A stretch of DNA of 12,822 nt from UHGV virus genome UHGV-1325350. One strand, written 5' to 3'. The number at the start of each line of letters is the position of its first letter. The stretch's first letter is position 1. A program made the position numbers and the translations under genes. The notes under the pieces were generated by a model, which was not told the DNA's origin, searched no databases, and worked only from the letters and a program-made list of their open reading frames with translations. Shown piece by piece: positions 1,408 through 12,735 of this stretch. This DNA is from a virus.

Positions 1408-1674
1408 TTAAGGCTCACATTTCCAGATGGTATTCTGAACACCAGAACCGGGCGCTAGATGAGGGTTAGCGTTCGCGCTATGCTGATATACTGCTTTAGA
1501 CTTCCCATATTGCTGACAGGCTTTATCTGCGGTTTTTTGCAGGCTATCCAGGCCATACCAACCATCTGACTGTATGCTTACCTTTTCACCGTCGTTGTAT
1601 TGCACCATTGCACACCCAGATATAGCCAGTATCGCGCCGACAATAACGCTTTTCCATAAAACTCTATGCAACAT
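1408..1674 (-). CDS. Putative lipoprotein (88 aa from ATG; ORF track begins at an upstream TTG at 1680)
   Basis: N-terminus [21 protein letters not shown] has a positively charged n-region, a hydrophobic core and lipobox L-A-I-S-G-C (SPase II type). Mature part about 67 aa with two further Cys. Start assigned to the ATG at 1672-1674. Confidence 0.65.
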
Positions 1675-1679
1675 ATACA

Positions 1680-1710
1680 AAAATCCCCTCTGTGAATTGA
1701 GGGGATTTTA
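1680..1710 (-). terminator. Intrinsic terminator hairpin after the 252-aa gene (probably bidirectional)
   Basis: AAAATCCCCTC (1680-1690) / GAGGGGATTTT (1699-1709) with 8-nt loop. On the minus-strand transcript the stem is followed by UUUUUGU. Sits 10 nt after the stop at 1720 and directly upstream of the lipoprotein start, so the stem also contains that gene's only SD-like element (GAGGGG). Confidence 0.7.
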
Positions 1711-1719
1711 GCATGGTGA

Positions 1720-2478
1720 TCAGATATCGGCTTTATTCGGAATTTTATCAGCCACCAGCGGCAATAAAGCCTTCGCCATTTCATGAACCAACATGGCATC
1801 AATGACGCCTAGCGTATGGCCCGGCTTAATCTTTAATGCGGCCTCAAGATAGCCTCTTTCCAGAGTGGTTTTTACGCTTTTCTTGGGCGATTGTTGGGAA
1901 CTATCCGGAAAATCCGGATGGTTGCCAGCCTCGTAAGCTACCCGCAGCCAGTGCATGAATGTTTCAGTGGACACACAACCACAGTCCACATCGATTTTCC
2001 CGCGTTGCTGTTCCAGCCATTGCCCAAAATCCAACCTGTAAGTCTTACTTTCAAGTTCATCACCATTGAACTCGACTTTCTGCGACGCTATGAGAGCTGA
2101 TTCGTATTGTTCGCGAGTGACAACTGACAGGTATTCATCGCTATCAAGGTCACCAATTGGAAGCTCAATCTCACAACAAAAATTGCGCCCAAAGAACGTG
2201 TCTTTTTTGTGGTCTGAGCCAAAAGCAAAAGTCGCGCATGGCGCCATTAAATTGGCACTGAGCAGGCGACAATCGATCATACCATCAGGCCACCCGCCGC
2301 ACTTAGGCAGCTCCTTCACTAACAAGTCGATAAGCTTCATTTTTTTATCATCTTTGCAAGCCGCCAAAGCCATTTGGGCAAGTGCCAATACTTCATCTGC
2401 CGTATATCCAGCACCGTGACCATACATTTCGATACGGGAAATAATATCTGAAATACGCTCTTTAGTGATTCTTGTCAT
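1720..2478 (-). CDS. Hypothetical Cys-rich phage protein (252 aa from ATG 2476-2478; longest ORF extends to 2496)
   Basis: The ATG at 2476-2478 overlaps the TGA of the upstream gene (ATGA coupling), as at many junctions in this operon. About 12 Cys including CC and CGC pairs. No family recognised. Followed by the terminator at 1680-1710. Confidence 0.65.
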   Translation of the reverse strand: MTRITKERISDIISRIEMYGHGAGYTADEVLALAQMALAACKDDKKMKLIDLLVKELPKCGGWPDGMIDCRLLSANLMAPCATFAFGSDHKKDTFFGRNFCCEIELPIGDLDSDEYLSVVTREQYESALIASQKVEFNGDELESKTYRLDFGQWLEQQRGKIDVDCGCVSTETFMHWLRVAYEAGNHPDFPDSSQQSPKKSVKTTLERGYLEAALKIKPGHTLGVIDAMLVHEMAKALLPLVADKIPNKADI

Positions 2479-2684
2479 AGTTTTATTTCCTTGCATGGTT
2501 CGCCTTTACGGCAAACAGCTACACGGTCATTTCTTACATTAACCACAGTCACCGTTCCGTCATCGCATTGAATAACGATGAAAGGGTGTTCATTCTCTTT
2601 TGTGCAATGTTGCTGTTCTCCAGCCATTGCAGCCGGAGGATCAAATAGCGCCAGAACAAATGCCAACCTTAAAAAATGCTTCAT
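2475..2684 (-). CDS. Small secreted Cys-rich protein (69 aa precursor, about 48 aa mature, 4 Cys)
   Basis: N-terminal signal peptide MKHFLRLAFVLALFDPPAAMA with A-M-A cleavage motif. Mature part has 4 cysteines, enough for two disulfides. ATG at 2682-2684 with AAGG Shine-Dalgarno formed by the last copy of the upstream direct repeat. Confidence 0.6.
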   Translation of the reverse strand: MKHFLRLAFVLALFDPPAAMAGEQQHCTKENEHPFIVIQCDDGTVTVVNVRNDRVAVCRKGEPCKEIKL

Positions 2685-2763: not shown

Positions 2764-2940
2764 TTACCAATACCCTCCGCCTGACTCAAAGTTGGCGATA
2801 AGCCAGGCTGCGAAAAGAGTAACCCCGCTCCAAAAACCACACCCCACCGTACCCCATTTAACACCACCAGCTAATAAAATAAATAAACCGCAAAGGCATA
2901 CAAACAAAAAAGTAATCCAAAATTTCTTTCTGTTTTTCAT
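2764..2940 (-). CDS. Small membrane protein, 58 aa, two predicted TM helices (not in ORF track; below size cut-off)
   Basis: My translation of the minus strand: MKNRKKFWITFLFVCLCGLFILLAGGVKWGTVGCGFWSGVTLFAAWLIANFESGGGYW. Basic N-terminus then two hydrophobic segments. The ATG (2938-2940) overlaps the TAA of the upstream gene (TAATG coupling). TAA stop at 2764-2766. Confidence 0.45.
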   Translation of the reverse strand: MKNRKKFWITFLFVCLCGLFILLAGGVKWGTVGCGFWSGVTLFAAWLIANFESGGGYW

Positions 2941-3245: not shown

Positions 3246-3650
3246 TTAATAAGAGAAATAGACCGTTGCAACACTGTTATATTGGTCGAACGAAATAGCA
3301 TTTACTTCATAGCTGGTGGGCAGCTTCTTACCAAGAATGTAGCCAGGCCATGAGTTCCACGGAATTTCTGTTCGGTCGTCGTCTTGCCACATTACGCAAC
3401 CAAGAGAGCCAACCATTTCACCATATCGCTTGCCACAAGTAACAAAGCCGATATTCGGCTTTTCTTGTGTTACTGATACCGTGGTGGTATTGGCAGATGC
3501 ATTGATTGCAGTACGTTGCTCATGCTCGCTGGCGGATGAGGCGCTAATTACAGCGGTTGCCGCAGCTCCCGCAGCAATAACCGGTGCATGAGATAAATGA
3601 CAGGCAGATAACATTGCCAGAAAAATAATATTTCTTTGAAATTTAGCCAT
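3246..3650 (-). CDS. Putative lipoprotein (134 aa)
   Basis: N-terminus MAKFQRNIIFLAMLSAC has an n-region, a hydrophobic core and lipobox L-S-A-C. Ala/Ser/Thr-rich linker after the Cys, then a globular region with two Cys. The ATG at 3648-3650 overlaps the end of the upstream gene by 8 nt. Confidence 0.65.
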   Translation of the reverse strand: MAKFQRNIIFLAMLSACHLSHAPVIAAGAAATAVISASSASEHEQRTAINASANTTTVSVTQEKPNIGFVTCGKRYGEMVGSLGCVMWQDDDRTEIPWNSWPGYILGKKLPTSYEVNAISFDQYNSVATVYFSY

Positions 3651-3924
3651 TGATATTAACCTTTATCGCAAATACCTTAACCGGATTCTCTCCAAAGTGC
3701 GGATGTGTAATTGTCTTTATTTCATACCCTTCATACGGGACGTCTATTCTGCGACTGGAATCGTCGCGCTTCGGATATCCCTTTGTGATAATCAGTCGGT
3801 CATATTCCCGGAACATGATTCGCTTATTCCAGTAGCCATTACACAAGCGATACTCTTCCGTTTTCTCTCCGCGAATCATGGCATCGAAGTATTCACCTTT
3901 GACGGCAAGTTGCAGGTTAGCCAT
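3643..3924 (-). CDS. ASCH domain protein (PUA-like fold), 93 aa from ATG 3922-3924 (longest ORF extends to 3945)
   Basis: Contains the ASCH signature GxKxxExR (IRGEKTEEYR) near the N-terminus. Internal ATG has a GGAGGTGAGG Shine-Dalgarno and overlaps the upstream TAA by 1 nt (TAATG). Confidence 0.6.
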   Translation of the reverse strand: MANLQLAVKGEYFDAMIRGEKTEEYRLCNGYWNKRIMFREYDRLIITKGYPKRDDSSRRIDVPYEGYEIKTITHPHFGENPVKVFAIKVNING

Positions 3925-8008: not shown

Positions 8009-8279
8009 TTGCTTTCTCCTGTCGGAACATCACGATCATCAGGTCACCTTTTGTCGCTATCCTGGCTGTTGTGCCAGGCTCAATGCGGCTAAGTTCAAAT
8101 GCGTCATAGAACGCCTCTAACGCTTTCTGGCGTCTCTCCTGTTTGCGGCGCTTTCCCCACTGCATTAGAAAAACAGAGGCCGCCCACTTCCCCGCACTGA
8201 ACATGATGTAAAACCAACCGAGCAGGGCCAAACCTGTGTTGAGGGCCGTATCGAGCGTTATCGTGGTGTCGATATTCAC
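7986..8279 (-). CDS. Small membrane protein (97 aa, GTG start), one or two TM segments followed by a basic cytoplasmic region
   Basis: GTG at 8277-8279 overlaps the TGA of the upstream gene (GTGA) and is preceded by AGGGGG. Hydrophobic stretch TALNTGLALLGWFYIMFSAGKWAASVFLM followed by KRRKQERRQK. Confidence 0.55.
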   Translation of the reverse strand: MNIDTTITLDTALNTGLALLGWFYIMFSAGKWAASVFLMQWGKRRKQERRQKALEAFYDAFELSRIEPGTTARIATKGDLMIVMFRQEKANGSKAND

Positions 8280-8986
8280 TGATTGCCCCCTTCCCTAAGC
8301 TGTTCTGCACAATGCAGCAGCGCACCTGTCGCATCTTTAAGCGTCACTAGCTCGTCATCATCCAGTCCTACTCCCCTCGCGTCCCTGACAAACGCCGCGC
8401 AAAGGTCGTTAAACGCCCCCGCCCGCACTTCAGCCAGGAAAGCGCCAGTAGCAGGGGTGTCAATGCAAACACTGTCACGAAGGATGAAGAACGCATTAAG
8501 CATTCCTCTTTCTGGTACATCGTCCTGGCATTCCTCATATGCAACCAATGCATCCATCATTTTCTGACCGAATTGCTGAGGGTGTGCAGATTTCAGTGCT
8601 ATATTCTCCGCCGCCAGCGTCGCGCGATTGCTCTCCAGTTCTGCAATGCGCTGTTTTGCAGCATCAAGTTCAATCGATAATTTTTCCAACTGCTCTTTAT
8701 GCTTCTTGTATTCCTGATATGCGTGCCAGGACTGACCTTTGCGCACACTATCAGTAATATCAGTAATCTGTTCTGGTGTTAGCGTGGTCAGTGGCTGTGC
8801 TGGGAAAATCAGCACTTTCCCGGAATCCCAATCAAAACCAGCGTGAATTGACTGAACCTCAACTGAGGGTGTTGAACCAATGCTGCCAGGCGAATGAACA
8901 ACGATCGTTACATCCATATCGCGACGATGGCTGTGGTTGTTGGACAAAATACGATTCACCAACTCAGAAAATTTGGAAAATTTCAT
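8276..8986 (-). CDS. Ead/Ea22-like coiled-coil protein, paralog B (236 aa from ATG 8984-8986; ORF track GTG at 9037)
   Basis: The ATG overlaps the TGA of the ClpX-ZBD-like gene (ATGA) and is preceded by AGGGA. Central segment [18 protein letters not shown] shared with paralogs A and C. Confidence 0.6.
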
Positions 8987-9309
8987 GCTGATTCCCTTTG
9001 CTCTTCCTGGATAATGTTGTTGCAATCTTTCACGCACTCGTCGCAGATGAAAACGTTGTCCCCGGCAATTAACTTTTTAACGGTGTGCTGGGATTTGTTG
9101 CAGAAGCTGCAATAAAGCGTTGGACTGGCTGATACGGATGGTGCGCCAGATGTCAGCCGCGCGATGTCGTTCTTGCGACGCAATATCACACGGCTGCACT
9201 CGACCAGCATCTCCGGGGATATCTCCTCCTCCGTAGCGAGCGTCTCTAATCGTTCGAGTATGTGGAAGGCTTTTTCCTGGGTAATTGCAGAATGAGATGT
9301 GGTCATCAT
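8983..9309 (-). CDS. Free-standing ClpX-type C4 zinc-binding domain protein (ClpX N-domain mimic), 108 aa
   Basis: C-terminal [39 protein letters not shown] aligns nearly residue-for-residue with the E. coli ClpX N-terminal zinc-binding domain ([39 protein letters not shown]), including all four Cys. No AAA+ module follows. ATG overlaps the upstream TGA; AGGGG Shine-Dalgarno. Confidence 0.85.
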
Positions 9310-10314: not shown

Positions 10315-10934
10315 GCCGACATCCTCCGAGACATAAACTCCACAAAACGAACTGCATCTTCAGAAACAACACCGCATGACTTCAGATAATTCATTGCGTC
10401 ATTAGGTAGCGGATTAGTTGGTTCGGCATTTGCCAGGGATTGAGATAAACGCGTGATTAATTTGACCATTCTCCGCTGTCGGAGGTTGTATCCTTCGGCT
10501 AAAGACAGGTAACTGGAAAGGGTATTGCTTAAGCGAGCGCGAAGCTGATCCGTGCCGTGACATTCAATAGCAACATCACGCAACGCATCGACCAGTTCGC
10601 GGTAAATATGCGCTGCCATTCTGCAATCTGTGTCAGATGGCGCTTCATAAATTACCGTCAGCTCCAGTTTTTCAGCCAGGGCGTGTTCTGCTCGTGCTCC
10701 TGCGGACGCTTCCCAGCCCTTAAGCAGATAGATAGCATCAGCAGAACGCACCATTGCCAGGCAAATATCCATGTATTCACTCTGACAAAGTCCACCAGGT
10801 AACACCGCTGGATTCAGAACGATATGCCCTTCAGCCGTCAGCTCACTCGCCTTCGCATTAAACGCCGCGCGGTTGTAATCTGGATAACCAGTCATCGGAC
10901 CCGCGATGTAAATTTTCAAAACACGTTTCACCAT
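10311..10934 (-). CDS. DUF4406 (nucleoside 2-deoxyribosyltransferase-like fold) protein with about 110-aa C-terminal extension (207 aa from ATG 10932-10934; ORF track TTG at 10961)
   Basis: N-terminal KIYIAGPMTGYPDYNRAAFNAKASELTAEGHIVLNP matches the YI(A/S)GPMTG...N...AF signature remembered for DUF4406/NDT-like proteins. The ATG overlaps the stop of the upstream 51-aa ORF (TGATG); GGGGAA Shine-Dalgarno. Confidence 0.6.
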   Translation of the reverse strand: MVKRVLKIYIAGPMTGYPDYNRAAFNAKASELTAEGHIVLNPAVLPGGLCQSEYMDICLAMVRSADAIYLLKGWEASAGARAEHALAEKLELTVIYEAPSDTDCRMAAHIYRELVDALRDVAIECHGTDQLRARLSNTLSSYLSLAEGYNLRQRRMVKLITRLSQSLANAEPTNPLPNDAMNYLKSCGVVSEDAVRFVEFMSRRMSA

Positions 10935-11089
10935 CAAAATTTCCCCAGCATCGTGACGCAAAACATAAGCACTGCAAAAAGCTCAATACCAAGCTCAAGT
11001 AGCGCCAACGCGCCGAAAAACAGCACATAAAACAGGCCGATCTCATTCACAGGTGGCTGGTGGATCGCACTTAAGGCTATAAGCATCAT
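10934..11089 (-). CDS. Small hydrophobic membrane protein, 51 aa; first gene of the leftward operon (not in ORF track)
   Basis: My translation: MMLIALSAIHQPPVNEIGLFYVLFFGALALLELGIELFAVLMFCVTMLGKF. GGAGGA Shine-Dalgarno just upstream of tandem ATG (11084-11089). TGA overlaps the ATG of the DUF4406 gene. Confidence 0.4.
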   Translation of the reverse strand: MMLIALSAIHQPPVNEIGLFYVLFFGALALLELGIELFAVLMFCVTMLGKF

Positions 11090-11115
11090 GTCCTCCAAAC
11101 AGTAAACAGCGACTG

Positions 11116-11143
11116 ATATTAATGTTTTATGTTAGAAAATCAA
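11116..11143 (-). promoter_or_regulatory. Predicted sigma70 promoter of the leftward operon (-35 TTGATT, 16-bp spacer, -10 TAATAT on minus strand)
   Basis: Minus-strand sequence TTGATT-TTCTAACATAAAACAT-TAATAT. The operator half-site TTCTAACAT lies in the spacer. About 25 nt upstream of the GGAGGA Shine-Dalgarno of the first ORF. Confidence 0.55.
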
Positions 11144-11159
11144 TTTTGAATATCTAACA
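11130..11159. promoter_or_regulatory. Operator-like palindrome TGTTAGA-N16-TCTAACA in the divergent control region
   Basis: Inverted 7-bp arms at 11130-11136 and 11153-11159. Contains the 11-mer ATGTTAGAAAA (11129-11139) also found at 7039-7049 and, in opposite orientation, at 11787-11797. Lies between the leftward operon and the rightward Ref-like gene. Confidence 0.55.
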
Positions 11160-11207
11160 AATATGATCAATCATAAAAAAATCGCTGATAAGTAAGAGGC
11201 AGCCAAC

Positions 11208-12342: not shown

Positions 12343-12735
12343 TTAAAACTCACCTGCACGCTGTTTTTCAAGCACAGATTTAACATTTGGCGCTTTACCC
12401 TCAAAAGAATGGAAAGTGCCACATTTTTCTGTCTTCACCTCGCGCAGAGCTTCGCCATCGGCATTCTGCCATTGATGGGATAATGTCATATCACCGCGAG
12501 AAGGAACATCAAGCGAGTACAGCGTATAAGTGCCTCCCATCTCTGCATATTCCTGGAACACATAACTCATTACGTCAGATTCAGTTTTACGATGTGCGTT
12601 ATCGACCTTATTCCCGTTCAGAAATATAGCGTTTGGATAGATTTTTATATCAAACTGACCGCATTTCACTTGCAGATTCCCAGCGTCTGCCAGCAAAGGA
12701 AAAGCAGCCAATAAAGCAATAGCCAATCTTTTCAA
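12343..12735 (-). CDS. Putative secreted/periplasmic protein with signal peptide (130 aa, TTG start)
   Basis: N-terminus MKRLAIALLAAFPLLADA is a typical Sec signal peptide with an A-D-A cleavage motif. TTG start at 12733-12735 preceded by GGAGG at 5 nt. No family recognised; could be host or prophage cargo. Confidence 0.6.
   Translation of the reverse strand: MKRLAIALLAAFPLLADAGNLQVKCGQFDIKIYPNAIFLNGNKVDNAHRKTESDVMSYVFQEYAEMGGTYTLYSLDVPSRGDMTLSHQWQNADGEALREVKTEKCGTFHSFEGKAPNVKSVLEKQRAGEF

What the first reader, a model, noticed from the sequence alone, without database searches (positions are those of the whole stretch)
3246..3650. Lipoprotein in the early operon as candidate superinfection-exclusion or envelope-modifying factor
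This protein has a canonical lipobox (LSAC) followed by an Ala/Ser/Thr-rich linker and a globular part. A second, smaller lipoprotein (1408-1674, lipobox ISGC) lies further down the operon. Prophage early-region lipoproteins commonly block receptors or DNA entry of competing phages (for example Cor-type and Llp-type proteins).
Basis: partly seen in the sequence, partly recalled or inferred. Interest (0 to 1): 0.45.

Follow-up and report, generated by a model that had tools for sequence, protein, structure and literature searches.

The report
Exported phage protein with lineage-specific lipobox
The gene is real and encodes a small protein that a P1/D6-like phage-plasmid exports to the bacterial envelope, but its lipoprotein signal comes from a single-base change found only in this lineage, it is unrelated to the known Cor/Llp exclusion lipoproteins, and its function is unknown.

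Summary
The 134-codon ORF at 3246-3650 (minus strand) is real. It has an L-S-A-C lipobox (Cys17), a linker that is 54% Ala/Ser/Thr, and a 71-residue globular domain that AlphaFold2 models confidently (pLDDT 89.6).

The window is the accessory-gene operon of a roughly 90 kb D6/P1-like phage-plasmid of E. coli and Salmonella. The protein belongs to a small orphan family (PHROG 8805, function unknown). Members occur only in Enterobacteriaceae phages: D6-like plasmids, Mu-like prophages, and the virulent phages Av-05, KW1E_UTAR and KLB16/22.

What the family shares is Sec export with an ordinary signal-peptidase-I site, not lipidation. The sister allele, which is common and 81-93% identical, reads LSAS (AGT instead of TGT). 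Every more distant member has an AxA cleavage site.

Envelope targeting is therefore supported. Lipidation is plausible for this allele only, and superinfection exclusion remains a guess.

The second ORF (1408-1674) is the sound lipoprotein. Its lipobox Cys is kept across Enterobacterales homologues, and its mature form is 68 residues.

The parts
3246..3650 (-). CDS of the 134-aa exported protein (stop codon at 3246-3248). PHROG 8805 family.
3660..3663 (-). AAGG Shine-Dalgarno-like motif, 9 nt upstream of the ATG. The ATG lies inside the last codons of the upstream ASCH gene (8-nt overlap), which suggests translational coupling within the operon.
   Evidence: read directly from the sequence
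3603..3650 (-). Signal peptide if cleaved as a lipoprotein (residues 1-16): n-region MAKFQR and a hydrophobic core IIFLAMLSA.
   Evidence: hydropathy peaks at residues 7-17
3600..3611 (-). Lipobox L14-S15-A16-C17. The Cys17 codon is TGT (3600-3602). The sister allele has AGT (Ser) at this position.
3582..3593 (-). Ancestral signal-peptidase-I site S20-H-A22|X23. It aligns with the AxA| sites of all other family members. In this window X23 is Pro (CCG, 3582-3584), a rare allele; pTB423 and most relatives have Ser.
3462..3599 (-). Low-complexity linker, residues 18-63, 54% Ala/Ser/Thr. Its length varies between alleles: 38 (in the N-terminally truncated entry P0203) and 44-52 residues among the cluster members measured, and longer in the 152-aa P0029.
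3249..3461 (-). Conserved globular domain, residues 64-134. Predicted topology is beta-beta-beta-beta-alpha-beta-beta. It contains 12 aromatic residues and ends in YF-x-Y.
3396..3437 (-). Invariant Cys72 ... Cys85 pair (TCG...SLGC), probably a periplasmic disulfide that closes a beta-hairpin.
   Evidence: invariant; the disulfide itself is inferred
1408..1674 (-). Second, smaller ORF (88 aa from the ATG), a conserved lipoprotein. Lipobox I-S-G-C is at 1612-1623. The mature form is 68 aa with Cys1, Cys33 and Cys66. Its stop codon lies 2 nt before the start of the hot (pol III theta) gene.
1680..1709 (-). Terminator-like hairpin (11 pairs followed by a T-run) between the 258-aa ORF and the small lipoprotein gene. 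Its 3' arm (GAGGGG) is also the only Shine-Dalgarno-like sequence for that gene.

Best explanation
The ORF encodes a stand-alone accessory protein that acts in the cell envelope. It belongs to a small, uncharacterised family confined to phages of Enterobacteriaceae.

The trait the family shares is Sec export followed by signal-peptidase-I cleavage. This releases into the periplasm a variable Ala/Thr/Ser-rich linker and a roughly 75-residue domain that is rich in aromatic residues and probably stapled by a disulfide.

In one lineage of D6-like phage-plasmids, a single A-to-T change (AGT to TGT, Ser17 to Cys) placed a Cys six residues upstream of the old cleavage site. This created a canonical lipobox (LSAC). 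This allele is therefore probably diverted, at least in part, to the Lgt/LspA/Lnt lipoprotein pathway. With His at position +2 there is no inner-membrane retention signal, so the protein would hang from the inner face of the outer membrane on a tether of about 45 residues. In the window's own allele, Pro at +1 of the old site should block signal peptidase I, which leaves the lipobox as the only canonical processing site.

The protein is made as one cistron of a long accessory operon with no promoter or terminator of its own, and it has no conserved partner gene. It most likely works by binding a host envelope component during phage growth. The most plausible purpose is to protect the infected cell or its progeny from further phage attack (superinfection exclusion in the broad sense).

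Shown here: the gene, export signals across the whole family, the lineage-specific origin of the lipobox, the orphan fold, and the genomic contexts.

Inferred: lipidation, outer-membrane location, the disulfide, the existence of a binding target, and the exclusion role.
For: Element and family:
- The window matches ~90 kb E. coli plasmids carrying P1/D6 markers: S24 peptidase (HumD-like), pol III theta (Hot-like), Ref, tyrosine-type recombinase/integrase and terminase. It is 91% identical to phage D6 over 51% of its length.
- About 100 homologous clusters were found, all from Enterobacteriaceae or their phages. Only 8 clusters reach E<=1e-10 among 1.84 billion 50%-identity cluster representatives.

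Signal peptides:
- All members outside the 134-aa clade have AxA| signal-peptidase-I sites that align with S-H-A22| of this protein.
- The sister clade is identical in the signal peptide except LSAS in place of LSAC. The codons are AGT and TGT.
- Both alleles are common: 540+80 contigs for LSAC, and 197+127+44 and more for LSAS.
- The lipobox fits the PS51257-type rule.
- The S23P allele is present but rare, on 3 contigs.

Domain:
- The Cys72/Cys85 pair and the aromatic residues are invariant.
- The domain model is confident.

Context:
- The gene sits in accessory arrays of unrelated phage types: the long leftward operon of D6-like plasmids, the early region of Mu-like prophages between the transposition genes and gemA/mor, and small-gene arrays of the virulent phages Av-05, KW1E_UTAR and KLB16.
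- It has no conserved neighbour.
- Known early periplasmic or outer-membrane exclusion proteins provide a precedent for this kind of role: T4 Spackle (PMC7677548), T5 Llp (PMC9586334) and Rtp45 (PMC12685063).
Against: - No experiment or homology links the family to any function.
- Because the lipobox Cys is absent from most of the family, lipid anchoring cannot be essential to whatever the domain does.
- In most LSAC alleles the signal-peptidase-I site remains intact six residues downstream. Cleavage there would remove the Cys and release a soluble protein.
- Within the LSAC clade there is too little divergence to tell whether the lipobox is under selection.
- The gene is not next to a receptor-binding-protein gene and lacks its own promoter and terminator. 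This differs from the Llp/Cor-type exclusion lipoproteins, whose genes lie directly downstream of the receptor-binding-protein gene, and, from general knowledge, from typical lysogenic-conversion genes.
- The timing of operon expression is unknown. No P1 C1 operator or LexA box was found in the window.
Confidence: 0.45

Rival explanations
1. One reading: a Cor/Llp-type outer-membrane lipoprotein that binds a phage receptor from the periplasmic side and blocks adsorption or DNA entry of competing phages.
For: - The lipobox is canonical in this allele.
- His at +2 is compatible with outer-membrane sorting (general knowledge of the Lol rule).
- The domain has an invariant Cys pair, as Llp and Cor do.
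- The gene is phage-borne.
Against: - The lipobox Cys is absent from the sister allele and from all distant homologues.
- No similarity to any Cor/Llp family or any other named family.
- No such structure appears among the fold matches shown.
- The gene is far from any tail or receptor-binding gene, whereas Llp and Rtp45-type genes lie directly downstream of the receptor-binding gene.
- The mature protein is 118 aa with a 46-residue linker, against about 61 aa for Llp.
Confidence: 0.1
2. This allele behaves like the rest of the family. Signal peptidase I cleaves after Ala22 or nearby, the Cys17 substitution is a neutral or hitch-hiking polymorphism inside the discarded signal peptide, and the protein is soluble in the periplasm.
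For: - The signal-peptidase-I site aligns across the whole family, and in most LSAC alleles it is intact as SHA|S.
- The two alleles are otherwise interchangeable, with a nearly identical domain.
- Both alleles are frequent.
Against: - A Cys preceded by L-S-A behind a short hydrophobic core is what Lgt recognises, and Lgt acts on the uncleaved precursor (general knowledge).
- In this window's allele, Pro at +1 should block signal peptidase I at the ancestral site (general knowledge of the enzyme's specificity).
- The two substitutions seen at lipobox position -1 in the clade (A16S) keep the lipobox valid. This is weak evidence.
Confidence: 0.3
3. The domain is not an exclusion factor. It modulates or inhibits a host periplasmic process, for example a peptidoglycan hydrolase or protease, an envelope-stress sensor, or outer-membrane-protein assembly. 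It might be a very distant relative of the enterobacterial DUF1471 stress proteins (BhsA, YdgH, SrfN).
For: - Both families are small periplasmic proteins restricted to Enterobacteriaceae. DUF1471 includes both lipoprotein and non-lipoprotein members; BsmA is annotated as a putative lipoprotein.
- The C-terminal hairpin motif looks alike, and hhalign aligns only that part.
- The gene occurs in virulent phages, which fits a role during lytic growth.
Against: - hhalign probability is 3.6%.
- HMM scores are about 0 bits in both directions.
- No PF07338 hit even at E<=10.
- DUF1471 function is itself poorly defined.
Confidence: 0.2
4. If this region encodes an Llp-like exclusion or lysogenic-conversion lipoprotein at all, it is the small ORF at 1408-1674, not the 134-aa protein.
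For: - The lipobox Cys is kept in virtually every full-length homologue from Escherichia, Klebsiella, Enterobacter, Serratia, Pectobacterium and others, although the signal peptides have diverged.
- The mature form is 68 aa with two further Cys, similar in size to Llp.
- In Klebsiella lambdoid prophages it has an upstream terminator and a promoter-like site of its own (10 of 12 consensus positions), as independently expressed 'moron' genes do.
- In the window a strong terminator-like hairpin insulates it from the operon upstream.
Against: - No similarity to Cor, Llp or any named family; its PHROG 7757 has unknown function.
- It is not adjacent to a receptor-binding gene. It travels instead with a pol III theta (hot) gene.
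- No tblastn match in the phage genome collection.
- It has decayed to a pseudogene in at least one P1-like plasmid.
Confidence: 0.2

Closest known systems
T5 Llp, the Cor proteins of T1/phi80, and Rtp45 (small outer-membrane superinfection-exclusion lipoproteins)
   Same: - Phage-encoded.
- Exported to the envelope.
- This allele has a lipobox with no inner-membrane retention residue.
- The domain has an intramolecular Cys pair.
- No partner gene is needed.
   Different: - No sequence, profile or fold match.
- The lipobox is not conserved in the family.
- The mature protein is about twice the size and carries a long low-complexity linker.
- The gene lies in an accessory operon, not downstream of the receptor-binding gene.
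- In Llp the disulfide ties the two termini together (Cys11-Cys58); here the pair closes a 12-residue hairpin.
T4 Spackle (Sp), a periplasmic exclusion protein
   Same: A small phage protein with a cleavable signal peptide that is released into the periplasm. This is the ancestral state of the family studied here. Homologues occur in virulent phages among early-type small genes.
   Different: - No sequence match to any PDB chain.
- Spackle is not among the fold matches shown.
- Spackle's target (the gp5 lysozyme) is specific to T-even phages. No target is known here.
DUF1471 / YhcN family (BhsA, McbA, YdgH, SrfN, YjfN, BsmA)
   Same: - Small periplasmic proteins restricted to Enterobacteriaceae.
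- A mixed beta/alpha fold with a similar order of core elements.
- A C-terminal strand motif '...A-T-[VI]-Y'.
- The family contains both lipoprotein and soluble members.
   Different: - Homology is not supported: hhalign probability 3.6%, HMM scores about 0 bits, no Pfam hit.
- The phage family has an inserted Cys-closed hairpin and an aromatic WPGY loop that DUF1471 lacks.
PHROG 8805 (phage protein family of unknown function)
   Same: Full-length match at E=1.4e-44. This is the family the protein belongs to.
   Different: The family carries no functional annotation. The lipobox allele is a lineage-specific variant within it.

Membership tests
Bacterial lipoproteins (Lgt/LspA substrates) | N-terminal signal peptide with lipobox [LVI][ASTVI][GAS]C, Cys within residues 15-35, and K/R in the first 7 residues (PROSITE PS51257-type rule) | tested here: met
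   MAKFQRNIIFLAM-LSAC, with Cys17. The regular expression matches.
Bacterial lipoproteins (Lgt/LspA substrates) | The lipobox Cys is conserved among homologues | tested here: not met
   Only the 134-aa D6-like clade, plus the variants P0031 and P0035, has it. The sister allele reads LSAS, and all other subfamilies have AxA| sites.
Bacterial lipoproteins (Lgt/LspA substrates) | Diacylglyceryl modification, globomycin-sensitive cleavage, N-acylation | not testable with these tools
   Needs labelling and inhibitor experiments. SignalP and LipoP are not available here.
Llp/Cor/Rtp45-type exclusion lipoproteins | Sequence or profile similarity to Llp or the Cor family | tested here: not met
   No Pfam, NCBIfam or PADLOC hit. 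The only PHROG hit is 8805, of unknown function.
Llp/Cor/Rtp45-type exclusion lipoproteins | Gene directly downstream of the receptor-binding protein or gpJ locus | tested here: not met
   The flanking genes are an ASCH-domain gene and a 97-aa hypothetical. No tail gene lies in the 12.8 kb window or among the annotated neighbours. The rule is taken from PMC9586334 and PMC12685063.
Llp/Cor/Rtp45-type exclusion lipoproteins | Very small mature lipoprotein (about 6-7 kDa) with an intramolecular disulfide | tested here: not met
   The mature protein is 12.1-12.7 kDa. A Cys pair exists but closes a hairpin.
Llp/Cor/Rtp45-type exclusion lipoproteins | Binds an outer-membrane receptor and abolishes phage adsorption | not testable with these tools
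   Needs plating and binding assays.
DUF1471 (PF07338, BhsA/YdgH/SrfN) | Match to the family profile | tested here: not met
   - No PF07338 hit for any of 39 members at E<=10.
- hhalign against 7 K-12 paralogues gives probability 3.6%.
- hmmsearch scores are about 0 bits in both directions.
DUF1471 (PF07338, BhsA/YdgH/SrfN) | Shared fold | tested here: inconclusive
PHROG 8805 | Full-length profile match | tested here: met
   E=1.4e-44; residues 9-134 align to profile positions 5-136 of 136.
Known anti-phage defence systems (PADLOC-DB) | Match to any defence protein model | tested here: not met
   No families at E<=0.1 for this protein or for six neighbouring or envelope-targeted proteins.
Bacterial lipoproteins: the second ORF, 1408-1674 | Lipobox present and its Cys conserved among homologues | tested here: met
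   ISGC in the window. A lipobox Cys (mostly [LVIMF][STAV]GC) followed by A-x-VQYNDG occurs in essentially all full-length homologues across Enterobacterales.

The most novel reading that the evidence does not exclude
This is a new family of phage periplasmic effectors with no recognisable fold relative. A single-nucleotide polymorphism switches the same domain between a soluble periplasmic form and a form tethered to the outer membrane, and both alleles are kept at high frequency in natural D6-like phage-plasmids. That would point to location-dependent function, for example exclusion of different competitors.

The family-wide hydrophobic V-[VI]-[IV] tripeptide at the mature N-terminus, the flexible linker and the C-terminal YF-x-Y resemble strand-docking signals (a TonB box; the C-termini of outer-membrane proteins). 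The protein could therefore act as a decoy that jams a host envelope machine such as TonB, BAM or DegS/DegP.
Probability: 0.08. Interest if true: 0.65.

Novelty: new member of a known kind. Interest (0 to 1): 0.3.

Why it matters
If the protein does exclude phages or remodel the envelope, it would add a new, structurally unrelated family to the few known phage envelope effectors. It would be one carried by widespread E. coli and Salmonella phage-plasmids, Mu-like prophages and virulent phages.

The natural Ser/Cys alleles are a ready-made experiment on how one mutation converts a secreted protein into a lipoprotein.

In practice the result is a caution: a perfect lipobox in a single sequence is not evidence that the family consists of lipoproteins. 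As it stands this is an ordinary hypothetical exported phage protein with no demonstrated function.

Tried and rejected
- Pfam, NCBIfam and PADLOC scans of this protein and six neighbouring or envelope-targeted proteins gave nothing usable.
- A Pfam scan of all 39 domain sequences at E<=10 returned only noise.
- The full-length AlphaFold2 model was poor (pLDDT 48) and was not used. The domain-only model was good.
- Fold searches:
  - Foldseek against the PDB found nothing with E<=0.001.
  - The viral structure set (BFVD) returned only a member of the same family.
  - The afdb50 library was unavailable.
- A profile search of PDB sequences returned noise.
- An all-against-all BLAST of ORFs from five contexts found no conserved partner gene.
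- The P1 C1 operator consensus (up to 3 mismatches) and the LexA box were searched for and not found, so the operon's regulation remains unknown.
- tblastn of the small lipoprotein against phage genomes found no match.
- The P1 genome paper is not held. No paper mentions 'prophage exported protein'.

Full report
**Observation**

The window carries a 134-codon ORF on the minus strand at 3246-3650. Its ATG is preceded by AAGG at a 9-nt spacing. It overlaps the stop of the upstream ASCH-domain gene by 8 nt (ATGGCTAA), and the next gene starts 12 nt after its stop. It is therefore an internal cistron of a long leftward operon.

The product begins MAKFQRNIIFLAMLSAC. K3 and R6 form the n-region, and a 9-residue window of peak hydropathy lies at residues 7-17. 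L14-S-A-C17 satisfies the PROSITE-type lipoprotein rule that I coded as a regular expression. Residues 18-63 are 54% Ala/Ser/Thr. Residues 64-134 are only 17% Ala/Ser/Thr and contain 12 aromatic residues.

**What the element is**

The 405-nt gene occurs only on plasmids of about 90 kb among 5,426 complete E. coli genomes: 33 genomes, no chromosomal copies.

In pTB423 the neighbourhood contains a terminase, a tyrosine-type recombinase/integrase, dut, an S24 peptidase (HumD-like), pol III theta (Hot-like), Ea22-like genes, a metallophosphoesterase (Ppp-like), DUF968 and a Ref nuclease. The window is 91% identical to phage D6 over 51% of its length, and it matches P1, P7, SJ46 and RCS47 in patches.

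This is the mosaic accessory operon of a D6/P1-like phage-plasmid. D6 itself lacks the gene: tblastn against 50,697 phage records finds only Av-05, KW1E_UTAR and two Klebsiella M5a1 phages.

**The family**

Two searches of the 5.8-billion-protein collection and one exhaustive profile search of 1.84 billion representatives give a narrow family. There are about 100 clusters at 90% identity. Only 8 representatives at 50% identity reach E<=1e-10. All come from Escherichia, Salmonella, Shigella, Citrobacter, Cronobacter, Rahnella, Klebsiella or their phages. It corresponds to PHROG 8805, of unknown function. Pfam, NCBIfam and PADLOC return nothing.

The domain has invariant G68, T71, C72, S82-L-G-C85, P102, Y114, D122 and T129-x-Y-F-x-Y134.

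**The lipobox is lineage-specific**

Alignments and a scan of all N-termini give three results.

1. The Cys-containing lipobox occurs only in the near-identical 134-aa clade of D6-like plasmids and in two variants (P0031 and P0035).
2. The sister clade (81-93% identical) has the same signal peptide but reads LSAS.
3. Every more distant subfamily has a textbook signal-peptidase-I site (AQA|S, VHA|S, ANA|V, VKA|A, ASA|N, ARA|V, AHA|V, TQA|V). These sites align with S20-H-A22| of the window protein.

At the DNA level the difference is one base, TGT against AGT. Both alleles are abundant:

- LSAC: 540 and 80 contigs for the two commonest sequences.
- LSAS: 197, 127, 44, 25 and more.

The two alleles are mosaic. 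The 5' third (signal peptide and linker) differs at many sites and by a 12-nt indel, while the 3' two-thirds differ at only about 5 positions. Linker length varies between alleles, 44 to 52 residues in full-length cluster members and longer in the 152-aa P0029.

The window's own allele has Pro instead of Ser at +1 of the ancestral cleavage site (CCG against TCG in pTB423). This exact protein is on record on only 3 contigs. From general knowledge of signal peptidase I, Pro at +1 prevents cleavage. In this allele the lipobox is then the only canonical processing site.

The conserved property is export to the periplasm. Lipid anchoring is a recent, optional addition, and whether it operates is an open experimental question.

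**Structure**

The full-length model was poor (pLDDT 48). Residues 57-134, modelled with a 39-sequence alignment, gave pLDDT 89.6 and pTM 0.76, with topology beta-beta-beta-beta-alpha-beta-beta.

- Foldseek against the PDB found nothing with E<=0.001.
- The viral structure set returned only the family itself.
- afdb50 was unavailable.

**Context**

Homologues sit in accessory arrays of unrelated phages:

- In Mu-like prophages, between the transposition genes or DUF3164 and gemA/mor.
- In the virulent Vequintavirinae phage Av-05, among small hypotheticals.
- In 45-kb siphophages, between a cytosine methylase and the terminase.

No neighbour is conserved across these contexts, although Av-05 shares two other genes with the window. 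The protein therefore acts alone. Its presence in virulent phages argues for a role during lytic growth rather than a purely lysogenic-conversion role.

In the window it has no promoter or terminator of its own. No P1 C1 operator or LexA box is present, so 'early' remains unverified.

**Mechanism**

- Shown: the gene, its export signals, the origin of the lipobox, the orphan fold, and its stand-alone distribution.
- Inferred: after Sec export, this allele is probably acylated at Cys17 and sorted to the outer membrane (His at +2). The 71-residue domain would then hang on a tether of about 45 residues. In sister alleles and distant relatives the same domain is free in the periplasm. The invariant Cys pair should form a DsbA-dependent disulfide.

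An aromatic-rich, disulfide-stapled periplasmic domain with no catalytic signature most likely binds a host envelope component. By analogy with Spackle, Llp and Rtp45, the most plausible benefit is protection from secondary infection. I give this composite explanation 0.45, and the exclusion role alone perhaps 0.25-0.3.

**Comparison with known systems**

It may work like an exclusion factor, but it is not a member of the Llp/Cor class. Sequence similarity, position next to a receptor-binding gene, small size and a conserved lipobox were all tested and not met. It is a member of PHROG 8805.

**The second ORF**

The 88-aa protein from 1408-1674 has a lipobox Cys that is retained in essentially all full-length homologues from many Enterobacterales genera, despite divergent signal peptides. 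The Cys is followed by an almost invariant A-x-VQYNDG. The mature protein is 68 aa (7.4 kDa) with Cys1, Cys33 and Cys66.

In Klebsiella lambdoid prophages it lies behind a strong terminator and has a promoter-like site matching 10 of 12 consensus positions. In the window an 11-pair hairpin terminator ends 6 nt before its ATG. In both contexts it lies close to a pol III theta gene. It is the sounder lipoprotein and a better candidate for a gene expressed from the lysogen, but it too has no known relative.

**Verdict**

This is a real, ordinary hypothetical exported phage protein. The lipobox is real but lineage-specific. The Cor/Llp analogy is unsupported, and the function is unknown. Interest is modest (0.3). 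The points of interest are the natural one-base switch between secreted and lipoprotein forms and an orphan fold shared by temperate and virulent enterobacterial phages.

Noticed in passing
window 1408-1674 (-); loci L016-L018 6001-6261: The small ORF is a conserved lipoprotein. Its lipobox Cys is kept across Enterobacterales homologues, and the mature form is 68 aa with two further Cys. In Klebsiella lambdoid prophages it has an upstream terminator and its own promoter-like site. In both contexts it lies near a pol III theta (hot) gene.
   Followed up: yes
window 1680-1714 (-): An 11-pair terminator-like hairpin ends 6 nt before the ATG of the small lipoprotein gene. Its 3' arm (GAGGGG) is the only Shine-Dalgarno-like sequence for that gene. 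A TGcTAAAAT extended -10-like motif (1713-1705) overlaps the 5' arm. A transcript starting there could not form the hairpin, which may be a way to insulate this gene from the operon upstream.
   Followed up: partly
L001 8161-8474 (pTB423), compared with L010 3001-3267 and L019 1308-1574: NCBI's annotation pipeline leaves the small lipoprotein ORF unannotated in pTB423 although the DNA is 100% identical to the window. It calls the same ORF in other records. In a P1-like 112 kb plasmid (L015) the ORF has decayed to a frameshifted remnant.
   Followed up: partly
window 3246-3650, compared with L019 3001-3450: The LSAC and LSAS alleles are mosaic. The signal-peptide and linker third is diverged, including a 12-nt indel, while the domain-coding two-thirds are almost identical. 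This suggests recombination within the gene or fast evolution of the N-terminal module. In p1_000533 a 1-nt deletion upstream leads the annotation pipeline to call an N-terminally extended 164-aa product.
   Followed up: partly
window 3582-3584: The window's allele has Pro23 (CCG) at +1 of the ancestral signal-peptidase-I site, where the common alleles have Ser. This exact protein is on record on only 3 contigs.
   Followed up: yes
window 2475-2684 (-), 2764-2940 (-), 10934-11098 (-), 12343-12735 (-): Four more small envelope-directed ORFs lie in the same operon region:
- a 69-aa protein with a signal peptide and 4 Cys (PHROG 20764);
- a 58-aa protein with two hydrophobic helices;
- a 54-aa hydrophobic protein at the head of the operon;
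- a 130-aa protein with a signal peptide (PHROG 13864).

All are of unknown function.
   Followed up: partly
window 8276-9037 and 1720-2496; L002 4267-4809 and 1381-1596: The virulent phage Av-05 shares two further accessory genes with this phage-plasmid operon: 59% identity over 133 aa, and 62% over 50 aa. One of them lies immediately downstream of its copy of the 134-aa family gene.
   Followed up: no
window 11118-11171: A 26-nt-arm imperfect palindrome (73% complementary) lies in the divergent region between the ref gene and the leftward operon. It is a candidate operator. No P1 C1 operator consensus or LexA box occurs anywhere in the window.
   Followed up: partly
window 3444-3462: A perfect 8-bp-stem palindrome (AAAGCCGATATTCGGCTTT) lies inside the coding sequence at the linker/domain boundary (codons K-P-N-I-G-F). 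The scan flagged it as terminator-like on both strands. It is probably incidental.
   Followed up: no
family alignment (A3 and A5; residues 23-26 and 130-134 of the window protein): A hydrophobic V-[VI]-[IV] tripeptide directly after the predicted cleavage site, and a C-terminal YF-x-Y, are kept across subfamilies whose linkers are otherwise unrelated. Their meaning is unknown; strand-docking motifs are one possibility.
   Followed up: no
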